NCBI RefSeq assembly: GCF_006345805.1
Contig: NC_043002.1
Coordinates: forward strand, 19,096,001 to 19,160,000
From: Octopus sinensis
Lineage: Eukaryota
Reading direction: 5' to 3'
DNA: 64,000 bases
Below are positions 1,475-61,976 of the stretch, piece by piece (position 1 is the stretch's first letter; every line of letters starts with the position of its first letter). The position numbers and the translations under genes are program-made. The notes below the pieces were generated by a model. It was not told where the DNA came from. It did no database searches and saw nothing but the letters and a program-made list of their open reading frames with translations.

Positions 1475-1580
1475 AACAGCTGGTGTCTGCAAGTACAACT
1501 TTCTTCAGTCTTATTAAATTCTTACTTATATCAGACAGTTTTTTTTTTCTGAACATAAGGGTCATCTTTATGCTCATAAG
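1475..1580 (+). other. Gene A putative non-coding exon 1 (5' UTR); true 5' start unknown
   Basis: Ends in ATAAG|gtaagt (donor at 1581). Collinear with 61878-61976 (-), sharing AACAGCTGGTGT, TTACTTATATCA, GTCATCTT and ATAAG|gtaagt. The coding exon starts ATG directly after an acceptor, so an upstream non-coding exon is required. Confidence 0.7.
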
Positions 1581-2009
1581 GTAAGTAAATGTTTGGAAAG
1601 TTATATTTAATGATTTAAAAGAATTGTATATTTATCTTAACGTTACGGATAGCTATGATACTGTTTTAGTTTTTCTTCTTCTTGGATTCTAATTTCATTT
1701 AGAATATGATATTTAGACGTTGCATATTTATATCTAAGAATGAATATAACCGCTAAAAAACGAACCGGTGTGTTTAAGAACATAATGAGCTGACATTATT
1801 TTTCTTAAATGTTATGATAACATTTTCAATAAATTTAACGAAGGAAACAGTGTACTCGCAGACTTGATAAATATAATATAAAACATAATCGAAAATGATA
1901 AACCAACGCTTTAAAGATAAACTGACGTTTTGATCTCTCACTCTCTACAATATACTCTTACTCTCTACAGTACATTCGGTAGGATATTTCAGTGTGCCCC
2001 CTTTCAAAG

Positions 2010-2790
2010 TAAGTTAATCCTTCCAAACCAAACAACTATCATCCCATTGCTTTCACTTCCAACGTCTTCAAAATAATGGAGACAACTATTAATAATGACG
2101 TTCTCCATAACTTTGAATCTCTCGCTCCTCATCGACTACTTGCACGGTGTCCACAGAACCAGATCCACTGGAAACCTATTCTCTTATGTCACCCAAAATC
2201 TTTGAAGAATTTTGGCAAAAGCAATGTTGTTGCTATAGACACCAGCATAGCCTTCGACCGTCTCTGGTATGCCAATCTCCTATCAAAACTTCCCGCATAT
2301 CTTCGTTCGGTATCTTTATATCATATCGCAGTATTGTGGCGTGTGTGCTAACAGAATTTCGAACCCATTCTGAATCAATTCTGTTGTTCCCCATGGTTCA
2401 ATTATGTTCCTATACTCTTCCTTCTATACATTAATGATATACTAACCGCCACATCTAACACTATTATGCAGATGACAAGACCATTCACCACTTCCTAATT
2501 TTCTCTGACCATTCTCCGTTCACATGCAGCTTACACACAGGTCGAACCTGCATTAATTCCACACGGAGAGTCTCTGAGAACATCCTGCAGCGAAGCCATG
2601 CCAGCCTTGTCTCTTTTAACAGCCACAAAAATCAAATACTAGTCACATCAAGGATACACCACCGCACTACATCTCTTCTAAACATGTTTGGAACTCAACT
2701 AGAGCTTTCATAATCGCTCCAAATGCTGGGCTTCACCTAGCGAAAGCACATCCTTAACGTAACTAGGACCTTATTCTAAAAAACTGACCC
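2010..2790 (+). mobile_element. Degenerate CR1/L2/Jockey-group LINE RT fragment
   Basis: NYHPIAFTSNVFKIMETTIN, VAIDTSIAFDRLWYANLLSKL, LLYIND and YADD remnants. Confidence 0.75.
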
Positions 2791-2802
2791 ATCTCTCTAG
2801 AG

Positions 2803-4000
2803 CAGTGCTTCCCAAATTTTTGCGGGCTACCGCCCCTATGGCTCCCAGATTACATTCCTAGCGCCCCACCCCATCACCATAAACATAGATCCCTTTCTTT
2901 TGCAAATTCGAAATAACTATATTTCACATATAAAACTTAATCTAGTTAACCCATTATTTTATTGTTTTACAATATGAAAGAGAAAATTTAAATCTCACCT
3001 GTAACTATGTTGTTTTATATGTTTACTGCAATGGTTGTACTTTGTGCAGGGGTATCGGCTTCCCAACATCAGGCTGAAAGACATTAAGAAATAGCCTTAG
3101 ATTCAATCTGGTTTTACCTTGCTTAGAAAGAAGCTGGGCTCGCTCAACTGAATATGACATTAGGAAGGCAATAAAGTATATTTTGACTTTGTTCCACAGT
3201 GCAGGGCAGCAATCAGAAATGTTCTTTTCAGTAAAAAAATTCCGATATAACTTTTAAACTTTGGCCTCAGTTCAATGTCATTTTAAAGTGAAACTAGTTC
3301 CTCCTCCACTAGTCTTGTTTCCTCAAAACTGATATCTAGGAATCACCCAGACTAGTATTTTAAGCAAAAATAAATATCCTGAAGTTTGTCAAATATGACA
3401 GGTATGAACAATATACTTGCATATCATCTTTTGGTATACACTTTTCCTTCTTCAGTTCGGAGGGGCACTGAAACTGGAAGAACTCGAGACGGCTTACGTT
3501 ACATTTGAATGACTTTAACTCGGACAGAAACGTGGAGAAGGCTGATTTTACATTGATAAGGTTTAACCTCATTTCCTAGCTGTTGCTAATTAATTTCAGC
3601 TGCTGCAAATTCATTTGAGCTTTGTGAGCCCTGCTTGATGGTTTTTTGTTCATCACAAAGAACATAATTAGAGACTTGCAAGAATTCAACAGCTGTTTTA
3701 ATAAAAGAATAGAAACTTTCAGGTAGTTTCCCATTACCATCCATCGAACTTCCGTGAGCAACAACAATAGTTCAAAATCTTTATCATTCTCAATGCAGAG
3801 CTGTTGAAACAGTGAGGAAGTGATAGCTTGTGCGTTGACTTTGGTGTTCCATCTACGGCTCAAAAACGAAATATTGACTATTTTTTGATATCTGCTTCTA
3901 GTTATCATACAGATAATAACTCTTGAGCTAAACGTTAATCTACGACGAAGCAAACATAAGCCAGTTTTGCGTCGCTATGGGTAGAGCAACGGATTCCAGT
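2803..4000 (-). mobile_element. hAT (Charlie/Buster-type) DNA transposon remnant
   Basis: Terminus CAGTGCTTCCCAAA preceded by CTCTAGAG (NTCTAGAN-type target site); minus-strand LLLLTEVRWMVMGN resembles the Buster LLLHTEVRWLSRG motif; multiple stops. Confidence 0.75.
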
Positions 4001-4257
4001 AATTTGAAAATTAGTGTCGACCAAACAGAAAATATCGTCTATAAAGAAGTTTTGTAATCATATCGATATTATTGCAAGGAATATGATTCATAATTTAAAT
4101 TAGGAAACTTGTGAACTTTGAATGTATAAGAGTATAAACAACATTTTTTTCTTAATACTTTTTATGTAGTGATCGCAGGAAGTTCTGGCTTTCGTAAACA
4201 AATCGGAAAGGCTTTGTAAGTTACGAGAGAAAGAGACTATGGAAGACTCATAGTATA

Positions 4258-59165: not shown

Positions 59166-59517
59166 TCATCACTAGAGGTATATCTGTCGTTTAAGTTGCT
59201 GACTTTCTTCAGAATATAGTAGAGCATGCCTAAACATTATTCTACTCACAGATCTGTAATTATGTCGTGGGGCACTGTTAAGTCTTGTGAAGGGATAATT
59301 AAGGTTGAAATGCAAATTCTTTCTTTTTTGTTAATATCAAATCACTTAAGTTTTATCTCCAATCCTTTTAAAACTTAGAATAGTATCTCAAAAGTTTTTG
59401 TGCCACAGTGAACGGGGTAAAAAGACAAAGATTTCGCATGTCAGAGTCATATAAAGTCAGCATGTTCTACGATACAGATAAAAAAAAACTTAGAAGTTTC
59501 AGAATATTGAAACGTAC

Positions 59518-59602
59518 CTGAAGCTACATCAAGTTCCCCAAAAACAGTGGGAATGGCAATAATTGGAATCAAAATTTTTGCCAATGAATTCAATGAATTC
59601 AT
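59518..59602 (-). CDS. Gene B exon 2: signal peptide MNSLNSLAKILIPIIAIPTVFGELDVAS (phase-1 end) of a 135-aa secreted 12-Cys protein
   Basis: ttttacttacag|ATG acceptor and TCAG|gtacgtttcaatattct donor, nearly identical to the gene A donor flank gtatgtttcaatattct. Confidence 0.88.
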
Positions 59603-60039
59603 CTGTAAGTAAAATAGAATAAACACACGTAAAATATATCGACTATTTTCATACCAAAGATAAATCATTTCTACAGAAAAGTGATCATTTACACACACAC
59701 ACGCGCGCACGCACACACACACACACACACACACACACACACACACACACGCACACGCACACACACACACACACACACACACACACACACACAACACACA
59801 CACACACACACAAACACACACACACACACACGCACACACACACGCACGCACACCACACACACGTACATACGCATGTATATATAGACCACAGATGAGATCC
59901 AGTGATTCTCAGTTTAGGAGATACCTGGTAGTGCTAAAATGGTTCAAATTAAGACTCCGAGGTCTTTACAGGGGATCAGATCCGTGGAGTAAAGAATAGC
60001 TATAAGAGAGATCCAGTGGAGCAGATACAGAGGCAATTA

Positions 60040-60660
60040 CGGGGAAAAACAAATTAGATGTATAAAATATAAGGTTAGATATGAAATACAAAATATGTAT
60101 ATATGTATATATTCAAAACGTGAGAAAACAAAAAGTGGAAACTTTCAGACGATGAATTTTTAGATATATAGATATTTATATTAATAGATCCAACTTACAG
60201 AGTACAGACGACAGAGAAAATTAAAGTGGGGGATAAAGGTGTTGTAAGTCCAACAGCTGCTTCTGGGGGCTCGGAGATTCATCATAATGTTGGCAGATGT
60301 AGTTCATCGCAATATGCGGCCGTAATGGAAACAATCAGAAGTGGATAATATGAACCTCCGTCATCAGAGCAGAAAGGATCTTACATTTCAGTTCTTAATG
60401 CAGAAAGTTCAAAGAGGGAATGATCATTCCCTCTTTGAACTTCTCTGTATTAAGATCTGAAATGTAAGATCTCTATCATTTGTACTCTGTGTAAGTTGGA
60501 CCTATTAATATAATTATCTATATATTTATACTTAAATATTCATCGTCTGAAAGTCTCCACGTTTTGATTTCTCTCGTTTTGCATATATAATATAATATAA
60601 TATACACATTTTGTATTTCATACTCAAACCGTTATATTTAATATATCTAATTGTTTTTTT
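60040..60660. repeat. Nested foldback: ~170-bp outer inverted arms, ~95-bp inner palindrome (60377-60471), and a hammerhead-like motif on - (60249-60370)
   Basis: ctttcagacgatgaat / attcatcgtctgaaag; gttcaaagagggaatgatcattccctctttgaac; reverse complement CTGATGA...GAAGC-AGCT-GTT. Confidence 0.8.
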
Positions 60661-61877
60661 TATCCGCATAATTGCTTCTATGCATGTATATATGTACGTA
60701 TGTATATTTTCTATACGCGTCAGCACGCAATGCCATCTTAAGGCAAGGGTACACTTCGTACTTTCTCAAGAGCCAATATCAATCCATGTATGAGGTCCTT
60801 AATCAGAGAGGAATCCCCAAAGCAACTGTTTTAATGAGTGAATATTTCCACACCATCAGATTTAGTAAAGAAAGTTTATAAACATCTTCATTCACTATAT
60901 TGCTTGGAAGTTTTGAATTTGATCTATATCAACTCTGACAGTAAGTTATCCAGTTCCTGCAGATAAACCAATAACATTATTAGCTGTCCCTGCTGCTGGG
61001 AACTTTTCACATGACGAAATACCAAAAGTCAACAACAAGTGAGCTGATCAGTGTATAAGCTCTCTGGAATGGAATCTAAAGAATAAGTAATTCTTTGATT
61101 TATTATCTTCAAGAATAGCACAAAGATCATGTCCCAATTATTCAATAAATCCCTTACAAATGTTTGTAGACAGATCTAATAGATTCATTTCCCAGGATTC
61201 CTAAACAGTTTGAGATGTTCTTCAAAAATTGATCAAAGTCCCTCAAAAGCTCTGGAACTCCAAAATTGTTTCATTTTTGCCAACCTATTTATTTGATTAT
61301 CTCATCGAAATGTCCAACATCTGGATGCAAGAAAGCGAATTACAGACACTACACGTGTCAATACTTAATGATAGTGGATCACTGGATTCATTGTGCCTTG
61401 TCATTATGTTAGAACCATGATAGTGACCTTTCAAATTCTCACTGAATGTATGATGAAAATGGAGAGAAAACTCAAAAGTTTTTATCAAGGAATTTGTCCA
61501 AACTTGAAATATTAAATGGCGATTGCGCAAGACTGGAATGGCTGTTTAATTCCCCATCCCTATGTCGTTTGTAATGTTTTGTATGTTTGCTTATTGTTCC
61601 AGATAGAATTTTTCTTTGCTGCGTCAAGATTCAATGATTGGAACCGAGGAATCTTATAGTAGGATATGAAAATGAAATAAAAAGTAACAAAAATATAAAA
61701 CAGCGCAATTGCATAATTTAAAATTCAAACCAATAGAAAAAACATTAAAAAAAACAAAACGAACGAAATTATCATAATCCTAAGAAATGCTCTGAAGATG
61801 AGTCTTAAATTTTTTAAAATTATTAAATACTTTATAGAACAAAATATTACAATATAACATTCCATAGTTTAACTTAC

Positions 61878-61976
61878 CTTATAATCTTGAAGATGACTTC
61901 TACGTTAAGAAATACAGAATGATATAAGTAATTTTCAAATATACCCGAAATGGTGGCGTTGAAAACACCAGCTGTT
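61878..61976 (-). other. Gene B putative non-coding exon 1 (5' UTR); true 5' start unknown
   Basis: Ends in ATAAG|gtaagt on the minus strand; collinear with 1475-1580 (+). Confidence 0.7.

What the first reader, a model, noticed from the sequence alone, without database searches (positions are those of the whole stretch)
1475..61976. Hidden convergent pair of paralogous genes encoding an unrecognised secreted 12-cysteine protein family
Seen in sequence: splicing 19007-19064, 20153-20272, 28828-28959 and 41286-41353 (+) gives A = MHAFSKVLFLLVLPIVVDS-ECNGCTLDGKCICGGSGIFRSLYDCKRVTCRRKALRIREI-LCNDGSGHCMSNGTKEPGFLDKRCVTYTCRVNNNLPTLSVEYDI-VCLLDHVYSQWQRSITQTMAEC (125 aa). Splicing 59602-59518, 58549-58427, 51564-51433 and 49922-49855 (-) gives B = MNSLNSLAKILIPIIAIPTVFGELDVAS-ECNGCYMTGICICNGSSGILRTMYECMEVECLHNDIKIHKS-YCKDNKGNCMEKDEKRIGVYNNRCVTFTCKFLMEIPRIDVHYNL-VCMLEHVYAGWQKLNMDHLKQC (135 aa). 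All introns are GT-AG and all coding introns are phase 1. The framework C-x2-C-x5-C-x-C-x11/12-C-x4-C-x11-C-x6-C-x14-C-x4-C-x16-C-x19-C-stop is conserved, and both proteins end on Cys. Mature identity is 44/107 by hand. The genes sit tail-to-tail, 8.5 kb apart. Inference: a small secreted family with probably six disulfides, formed by inverted duplication. I cannot assign it to a named family. In cephalopods such proteins could be salivary-gland venom components, pheromones, egg-coat or immune proteins; none of these is shown here.
Basis: partly seen in the sequence, partly recalled or inferred. Interest (0 to 1): 0.9.

Follow-up and report, generated by a model that had tools for sequence, protein, structure and literature searches.

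The report
Fast-evolving octopus secreted protein family
The two genes are real members of a large, unnamed octopus gene family whose small 12-cysteine proteins are predicted to fold as a pair of fibronectin-type-I-like modules and, in the youngest copies, change faster than their own introns, so they likely act as secreted binding proteins in a molecular arms race whose tissue is still unknown.

Summary
The gene models are right. Gene B's protein is letter for letter an unnamed Octopus sinensis RefSeq model, XP_036359561.1. Gene A was returned by none of four protein searches, so only A is hidden. They are not an isolated pair. They are 2 of 6 genes in the local cluster and 2 of at least 16 complete 12-Cys genes on one contig, beside 6 partial copies and at least 8 copies of a 10-Cys sister type. 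B resembles other neighbours more than A. Relatives were found only in Octopus. There is no Pfam hit, but the AlphaFold model (pLDDT about 90 over residues 31-120) is a tandem pair of fibronectin-type-I/VWC-clan modules, each on a phase-1 exon, plus a C-terminal helix. In the two youngest duplicate pairs, amino-acid-changing sites differ at 11-13% and introns at 2-3% (p about 1e-10); against silent sites the pooled p is 0.02. That points to positive selection. Best reading: non-enzymatic secreted binders, most likely in reproductive secretions (0.4); immune (0.25) and venom (0.15) roles remain open. Expression was not established. New variant of a known kind; interest 0.5.

The parts
1407..1414 (+). 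Gene A, conserved upstream ATAAATCA motif (TATA-like or homeodomain-type site; role inferred)
   Evidence: ATAAATC[AG] in 9 of 12 paralog 5' regions, background 0.01 per 150 nt
1477..1580 (+). Gene A, 5' non-coding exon from the conserved CAGCTG to the donor (true start unknown)
   Evidence: homologous to B's and 10 other paralogs' 5' exons; donor AAG|GTAAGT; no read support
19007..19064 (+). Gene A exon 1: start codon and predicted signal peptide
   Evidence: best 9-residue hydropathy 3.3; SignalP not run
20153..20272 (+). Gene A exon 2: FnI-like module 1, 6 Cys, phase 1-1
28828..28959 (+). Gene A exon 3: FnI-like module 2, 4 Cys, phase 1-1
41286..41353 (+). Gene A exon 4: Cys, predicted helix, terminal Cys, stop; AATAAA at 41384
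49855..49922 (-). Gene B exon 4: Cys, predicted helix (residues 117-122), terminal Cys, stop; AATAAA at 49812
51433..51564 (-). Gene B exon 3: FnI-like module 2
58427..58549 (-). Gene B exon 2: FnI-like module 1
59518..59602 (-). Gene B exon 1: start codon and predicted signal peptide
   Evidence: hydropathy 2.8; whole protein identical to XP_036359561.1
61878..61974 (-). Gene B, 5' non-coding exon from CAGCTG to the donor (true start unknown)
   Evidence: no read support
62026..62033 (-). Gene B, conserved upstream ATAAATCA motif, within CACATGATAAATCA

Best explanation
Genes A and B belong to an Octopus gene family of at least 16 intact 12-cysteine genes whose products are predicted to be secreted, disulfide-locked pairs of fibronectin-type-I-like modules that likely work as non-enzymatic binders of fast-changing extracellular partner proteins, most likely in reproductive secretions. 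Shown: gene structure, family size, Cys framework, 1:1 orthologs in O. bimaculoides, and exons diverging faster than their introns in young duplicates. Predicted: the fold, and a Cys41-Cys135 bond (gene B numbering) that ties the C-terminal helix back onto module 1. Inferred: the cysteines hold a fixed scaffold while surface residues, perhaps the edge strand of module 2, are reshaped by selection to bind new partners by beta-strand addition, as FnI modules do; the shared 5' motifs point to co-expression in one secretory tissue. Odds: secreted binder scaffold under diversifying selection 0.75; reproductive setting (seminal fluid, spermatophore, oviducal gland or egg surface) 0.4 overall.
For: Family: 16 genes with exons 2-4 and 12 Cys each, from 13 and 15 first matches. 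Fold: mean pLDDT 79.7, 87-94 over residues 31-120, nine strands and one helix. Foldseek top six rows are fibronectin FnI chains (best E 9e-3). VIA-align best Z 6.0 to 8-9FnI, single modules rmsd 1.7-1.8 A over 41-42 residues. Sister-type module 1 gives FnI, MSMB3 or vWF/FCGBP modules in the top 14 of 455 rows, Z 6.1 to 4.2. Selection: pair b5/b6 nonsynonymous 27.5 of 242 sites vs non-coding 230 of 9690 (p 2.5e-11) and silent 2.5 of 70 (p 0.018); pair b2/b3 31 of 243 vs 232 of 7489 (p 1.3e-10); pooled against silent p 0.021; b5/b6 signal-peptide exons identical. Intron flanks on both sides of each exon are near-identical. No residue other than Cys is invariant in all blocks except one Gly and one Asp, which argues against an enzyme. 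Cys41 and the terminal Cys are jointly absent in the 10-Cys sister type and the model has a bridge at residue 134. Setting: PMC7656900 section 9 says genes dating to the octopod ancestor are most expressed in male reproductive tissues. PMC10036341 passages describe beta-microseminoprotein, a fold relative here (Z 5.2), as a seminal-fluid protein with a relative in a cephalopod egg mass.
Against: No expression data tie any member to a reproductive tissue; the setting rests on a class-wide prior and a fold analogy. b2/b3 alone is not significant against silent sites (6 of 69, p 0.24); a third pair, e2/e3, gives dN/dS 1.08, and older pairs give 0.35-0.84, so positive selection is shown for young copies elsewhere on the contig, not for A or B. 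B is 39 of 40 identical to its O. bimaculoides ortholog in exon 2, which is conservation, not an arms race. Fold Z-scores are middling (under 8) and no Foldseek hit reaches E 0.001. The edge-strand enrichment (10 of 20 vs 12 of 66 positions, p 0.007) is post hoc, and family-wide variability is spread along both modules. Signal peptides were judged by hydropathy only.
Confidence: 0.4

Rival explanations
1. Immune or antimicrobial binders: secreted by haemocytes, white body or mucosal glands to recognise microbial surfaces or block parasite proteins, as single-VWC proteins of arthropods are reported to do (recalled).
For: Clustered multigene family, variable net charge from -6 to +12, positive selection in young copies, SVWC among the Atlas leads (score 0.76, lead only).
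Against: Three O. sinensis accessions, including B's, and two O. bimaculoides accessions are absent from a skin-mucus proteome table that uses this accession series (981 A0A7E6E entries; file cut when stored). Stable 1:1 orthology with O. bimaculoides for most members is less turnover than many immune families show.
Confidence: 0.25
2. Salivary or venom components that bind and block prey proteins, analogous to the tick 8.9 kDa family and its complement inhibitor CirpT.
For: Constant signal peptide and Cys frame with hypervariable mature region and exons outrunning introns is the pattern known from venom families (recalled). CirpT4 is the top Atlas lead (0.80, chance level). PMC9779611 passages describe the 8.9 kDa family as a VWC-like, highly variable salivary scaffold.
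Against: Eleven accession or locus terms and four short motifs for family members gave no member in the O. vulgaris posterior salivary gland proteome supplement, which does list 794 A0A0L8H and 459 XP_01477 entries, including the neighbouring accession for alpha-centractin (file cut). CirpT1 structural match is weak (Z 2.9).
Confidence: 0.15
3. Chemical signals or ligand carriers on skin and suckers (contact pheromones, chemotactile mucus proteins).
For: Small stable secreted proteins, octopus-restricted in the collections searched; a squid beta-MSP-like contact pheromone is a precedent for the fold clan (recalled; a cephalopod egg-mass relative is mentioned in PMC10036341).
Against: Not found in the skin-mucus table (cut). 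The predicted all-beta two-module fold has no evident cavity-forming lipocalin or OBP architecture.
Confidence: 0.1
4. Matrix or developmental modulators (collagen-, fibrin- or BMP-binding, like fibronectin or chordin modules), with the excess of amino-acid changes due to relaxed constraint after duplication.
For: Closest solved structures are matrix-binding FnI pairs; the sister type's only PDB sequence match is chordin (E 0.58).
Against: Relaxation predicts exon divergence equal to, not 4-5 times above, intron divergence. Ortholog identity falls to 62-68% for four members.
Confidence: 0.1

Closest known systems
Fibronectin type I (FnI) module pairs, e.g. human 8-9FnI (3ejh) and 2-3FnI (2cg6)
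   Same: Predicted 2+3-stranded antiparallel modules of about 45 residues in tandem (Z 6.0 for the pair, rmsd 1.7-1.8 A per module); one module per phase 1-1 exon.
   Different: Stand-alone 125-135 aa protein rather than part of a giant matrix protein; C-x4-C instead of C-x-C, extra Cys on the second strand, no core Trp in the 12-Cys type, added C-terminal helix with terminal Cys; pair rmsd 5.5 A; about 10% identity; invertebrate.
Beta-microseminoprotein / PSP94 family (chicken MSMB3, 6rwc; squid beta-MSP-like pheromone recalled)
   Same: Small secreted two-domain beta protein of the same clan; C-x-D-x-x-G motif in module 2; single-module Z 5.2, rmsd 1.3 A.
   Different: No CxxCxC or CC motif, 12 rather than 10 Cys, no PF05825 hit, whole-protein Z only 2.9.
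Tick 8.9 kDa salivary family / CirpT, and arthropod single-VWC proteins
   Same: Lineage-restricted, highly variable family on a VWC-like scaffold with variable Cys number (PMC9779611 and 10.1101/647354 passages).
   Different: Lacks the adjacent CC cluster described for the 8.9 kDa family; two full FnI-like modules rather than one plus a loopy domain; Z 2.9 to CirpT1; no sign of homology beyond the clan fold.
RefSeq uncharacterized Octopus proteins (LOC118763828, LOC118763715, LOC118763690; O. bimaculoides LOC106869794, -796, -804, LOC106872050, LOC106872966, LOC128248081, -169, -170, -178)
   Same: These are the family itself; B is LOC118763828.
   Different: Unnamed and unlinked as a family; only 3 O. 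sinensis records were seen against 16 complete genes found here.

Membership tests
Fibronectin type I module | Two-stranded plus three-stranded antiparallel beta fold of about 45 residues | tested here: met
   On predicted models only: (Z 4-6, rmsd 1.4-2.3 A per module; middling Z)
Fibronectin type I module | Four Cys with a C-x-C on the fourth strand (pattern recalled) | tested here: not met
   C-x4-C without the middle Cys in 12 of 12 exon-3 and 14 of 14 exon-2 rows
Fibronectin type I module | Conserved core Trp of the G-x-x-W motif (recalled) | tested here: not met
   Not conserved in the 12-Cys type; invariant in the 10-Cys sister type
Fibronectin type I module | Pfam match above the curated cut-off | tested here: not met
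   0 of 6 exons, 0 of 9 proteins; best sister-type hit Fn1_2 E 0.049, 14 bits against a cut-off of 27
VWC / SVWC / tick 8.9 kDa (CirpT) | CxxCxC motif and adjacent CC pair | tested here: not met
   Neither motif in alignments A2, A3, A4, A7, A8; CC cluster described in PMC9779611 passages
VWC / SVWC / tick 8.9 kDa (CirpT) | Structural similarity over the whole domain | tested here: inconclusive
   Z 2.9-3.2 to CirpT1, CCN3 and collagen vWC; VWC Pfam E 0.016 for 1 of 14 sister-type exons
Beta-microseminoprotein (PSP94) | Ten-Cys pattern with CxxCxC and CC, and PF05825 match | tested here: not met
Beta-microseminoprotein (PSP94) | Expression in reproductive glands or fluids | not testable with these tools
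   tissue labels were not on record for the runs offered
Ly6/uPAR three-finger (UniRef label on P0023) | C-terminal CC-x(4)-CN motif and three-finger fold (recalled) | tested here: not met
   No CC or terminal CN motif in P0023; no Pfam hit for the family
Cephalopod venom protein | Presence in posterior salivary gland or saliva | tested here: inconclusive
   No member found in PMC7693380 supplement, but the file is cut and covers another species

The most novel reading that the evidence does not exclude
Octopuses carry a repertoire of about 30 secreted two-module binders, built on their own version of the FnI/VWC scaffold, diversified by positive selection and by splicing of interchangeable phase-1 module exons between tandem genes to give two- and four-module variants: a combinatorial recognition system for gametes, mates, microbes or prey. 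Hints: two O. bimaculoides RefSeq models join modules of adjacent same-strand genes (P0019, P0013), and an exon 3-4 copy with no exon 2 of its own lies behind a complete gene at C6:96.90 Mb. Both could be annotation read-through or incomplete search.
Probability: 0.12. Interest if true: 0.8.

Novelty: new variant of a known kind. Interest (0 to 1): 0.5.

Why it matters
It turns two unnamed gene models into a defined octopus family of about 30 loci with a predicted fold and a clear signature of adaptive change in young copies. Families with that signature are where venoms, gamete-recognition proteins, pheromones and immune binders are usually found, so one tissue-expression check would hand cephalopod biologists a ready candidate set for whichever it is. 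It also shows a small VWC/FnI-clan scaffold being turned into a variable secreted family again, in parallel with tick 8.9 kDa proteins and beta-microseminoproteins. It is not a new fold, and no function is shown.

Tried and rejected
Expression: the one run search used window 41200-42200 (A's last exon and 3' flank); no RNA holder listed among 24 runs, which is no evidence either way. Laying 4 of those 24 runs on 41200-61199 was swamped by repeats; none of the 15 joints shown of 205 is an exon junction, and small depth in the bins holding B exons 1 and 2 in run X8 cannot be told from repeat signal. Protein search with A's exon 3 alone: no candidate among 77-2000 aa proteins. Atlas: all scores at or under 0.80, leads only. 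Of the 12 hits in the 1.84-billion search, 2 (P0024, P0027) are repeat artefacts and were dropped. Module 1 vs module 2 profile comparison is not significant (probability 1%), so internal duplication rests on Cys spacing and fold. Literature: 18 locus or accession terms in three full-text searches gave 0 papers; two topic searches gave 0. Supplement searches without a hit: PMC12607849 (393 characters held), PMC6635378, PMC9699675 (one file not searched), PMC9712504 (one file unreadable); none had a positive control. Earlier scan findings: nothing relevant. A scan for an actin-like neighbour gene with short motifs found nothing. The 'UPAR/Ly6' label on P0023 was rejected. A gene-conversion boundary as cause of the exon excess was considered; flanks on both sides are near-identical. 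No complex prediction was run, as no partner is known. The 10-Cys sister type was not searched in the large protein collections, so its range is unknown.

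
Full report
Observation. Splicing the stated exons gives two open frames of 125 and 135 codons with GT-AG, phase-1 introns, each ending on Cys then stop. The outer coordinates mark homologous 5' non-coding exons ending in AAG|GTAAGT. A profile search of 5.8 billion protein clusters returned a 135-aa Octopus sinensis RefSeq protein, XP_036359561.1 (LOC118763828), identical to B. The window is therefore very likely from that species and B is already annotated, without a name. A was returned by none of four searches. Its 12 cysteines, splice sites and frame are intact at about 40% identity to its nearest paralogs, so it has been kept by selection, although its branch is long (0.72).

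Family. Exon searches of the window's genome gave 13 exon-3 and 15 exon-2 matches; 26 of these 28 have the acceptor two bases before the first Cys; the other two are a sister-type exon and a match on contig C21. Fetching the surroundings showed six genes in C6:19.05-19.26 Mb, on both strands, with A and B in the middle. Further clusters lie at C6:9.8-10.4, 13.1 and 96.6-96.9 Mb. Sixteen genes have exons 2, 3 and 4 with 12 Cys. Six more are partial within the stretches fetched. Counts are lower bounds. A sister type lies among them and at 101.0 Mb: 8 module-2 and 8 module-1 exons, with five Cys per exon, an invariant Trp in each module and a stop in the second exon. Its modules align with those of the 12-Cys type (hhalign 88.5% and 94.5%). 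It lacks the second Cys of the C-x-C and the terminal Cys, which predicts that these two form a bond in the 12-Cys type.

Range and history. Every credible relative in the protein collections is from O. sinensis or O. bimaculoides: 7 of 7, 8 of 8 and 10 of 12 in the exhaustive search of 1.84 billion representatives, the other two being repeat artefacts. Squid and cuttlefish coverage of those collections is unknown, so 'octopus-specific' is provisional. Most members have a 1:1 ortholog in O. bimaculoides with full support, at 62-97% identity; A has none among the records found. The family predates the split of the two species and still duplicates (b2/b3, b5/b6). The idea that A and B arose from each other by one inverted duplication is not favoured: B is 49-50% identical to d1 and d6 and 41% to A, and B's 5' region is 83% identical to d1 and 57% to A. 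The tree does not resolve the cluster and does not reject an A+B clade (p-AU 0.315; 27 rows, 4 single-exon rows left out).

Fold. Pfam and PDB sequence searches are blank. AlphaFold2 on B with a 26-row alignment gives pLDDT 87-94 over residues 31-120, nine strands and a helix at 117-122. Foldseek ranks fibronectin FnI chains in the top six, best E 9e-3, none under 1e-3. VIA-align gives Z 6.0 to the 8-9FnI pair (rmsd 5.5 A, 83 residues) and 1.7-1.8 A to single modules. A sister-type module alone returns FnI, MSMB3 and vWF-type modules in its top 14 rows, and has weak sequence links to VWC (E 0.016) and chordin (E 0.58). These scores are middling, but three methods agree and each module is one phase 1-1 exon. 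I read this as the FnI/VWC clan fold with a rewired cysteine set. It fails the motif tests for FnI, VWC, PSP94 and Ly6, so it is not filed as a member of any of them.

Selection. In pair b5/b6, 27.5 of 242 nonsynonymous sites differ, against 2.5 of 70 silent and 230 of 9690 non-coding sites; in b2/b3, 31 of 243 against 6 of 69 and 232 of 7489. Against non-coding DNA p is 2.5e-11 and 1.3e-10. Against silent sites p is 0.018 and 0.24, pooled 0.021. The b5/b6 signal-peptide exons are identical, and the 60 intron bases before each exon differ at 6 of 360 positions. The third young pair gives dN/dS 1.08 and older pairs 0.35-0.84, A vs B 0.84 over two exons. So positive selection is shown for recent copies on the same contig, not for A or B themselves, and B is nearly unchanged in O. 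bimaculoides (39 of 40 in exon 2). Changes are enriched in the last strand of module 2 (10 of 20 vs 12 of 66, p 0.007, post hoc). From general knowledge, that is the edge strand on which FnI modules bind peptides by beta-strand addition; the collagen- and staphylococcal-peptide complexes among the hits are examples.

Regulation. CAGCTG is kept in 11 of 12 5' regions and ATAAATC[AG] in 9 of 12, against backgrounds of 0.04 and 0.01 per 150 bases. This suggests shared control in one tissue but does not name it.

Tissue. Not established. The run search and read laying were uninformative. No member was found in the supplement of an O. vulgaris posterior salivary gland proteome (PMC7693380; listing and supplement term searches, with positive controls) or a skin-mucus proteome (PMC10138644; same). 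Both files were cut when stored, so this lowers but does not exclude venom and mucus roles. PMC7656900 (passages and section 9) reports that genes dating to the octopod ancestor are most expressed in male reproductive tissue. PMC10036341 (passages) links beta-microseminoprotein to seminal fluid and a cephalopod egg mass. PMC9779611 and 10.1101/647354 (passages) describe the parallel tick family. PMC12607849 was seen in passages and a near-empty supplement; PMC6635378, PMC9699675 and PMC9712504 only by supplement term search. Unsearched or cut supplements and bioRxiv supplements may hold expression data. The squid beta-MSP pheromone work is recalled, not read.

In print? Eighteen locus or accession terms and two topic searches found no paper. 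The library lacks most subscription journals, so a description under other identifiers is possible.

Verdict. A real, sizeable and undescribed octopus family of predicted secreted FnI-pair proteins with adaptive change in young copies. Binder scaffold under diversifying selection 0.75; reproductive 0.4, immune 0.25, venom 0.15, skin signal 0.1, matrix 0.1. New variant of a known kind. Interest 0.5.

Noticed in passing
G000:C6 9.80, 9.87, 10.38, 96.65, 96.71, 96.75, 96.93, 101.04, 101.09 Mb (e.g. L132:8849-8983 and 6136-6279): 10-Cys sister subfamily with an invariant Trp in each module and the stop in the second module exon followed by a 3' UTR donor; not searched in the large protein collections.
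   Followed up: partly
G000:C21:14030550-14030693 (L088): Single phase-1 exon on another contig with both the C-x-C of the 12-Cys type and the Trp position of the 10-Cys type; no partner exons found in 60 kb. Possible outgroup or unrelated VWC-like exon.
   Followed up: partly
G000:C6:96902124-96906584: Exon 3 and exon 4 copy directly behind a complete gene, with no exon 2 of its own found; may be an alternative 3' cassette.
   Followed up: partly
P0019 and P0013 (O. bimaculoides RefSeq models of LOC106869796): Models that join module exons of adjacent same-strand paralogs; read-through annotation or real intergenic splicing.
   Followed up: no
G000:C6:19216830-19217140: In paralog d5 the conserved upstream motifs are replaced by a microsatellite while the 5' exon donor is kept.
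   Followed up: no
window 13765-15147 (-), 7130-7552 (+), 16463-17392 (-), 24677-26282 (+), 35725-36348 (-): Intronic ORFs that look like fragments of non-LTR retrotransposons, including a Penelope-like RT with GIY-YIG-like tail at 24677-26282 (by eye; not tested).
   Followed up: no
window 21520-21999 (+), 32061-32762 (+): Mariner-like transposase fragments in introns of gene A (by eye; not tested).
   Followed up: no
G000:C6:96772958-96807226: Two acidic members (pI 4.9, net charge -5 and -6) in an otherwise neutral-to-basic family.
   Followed up: no
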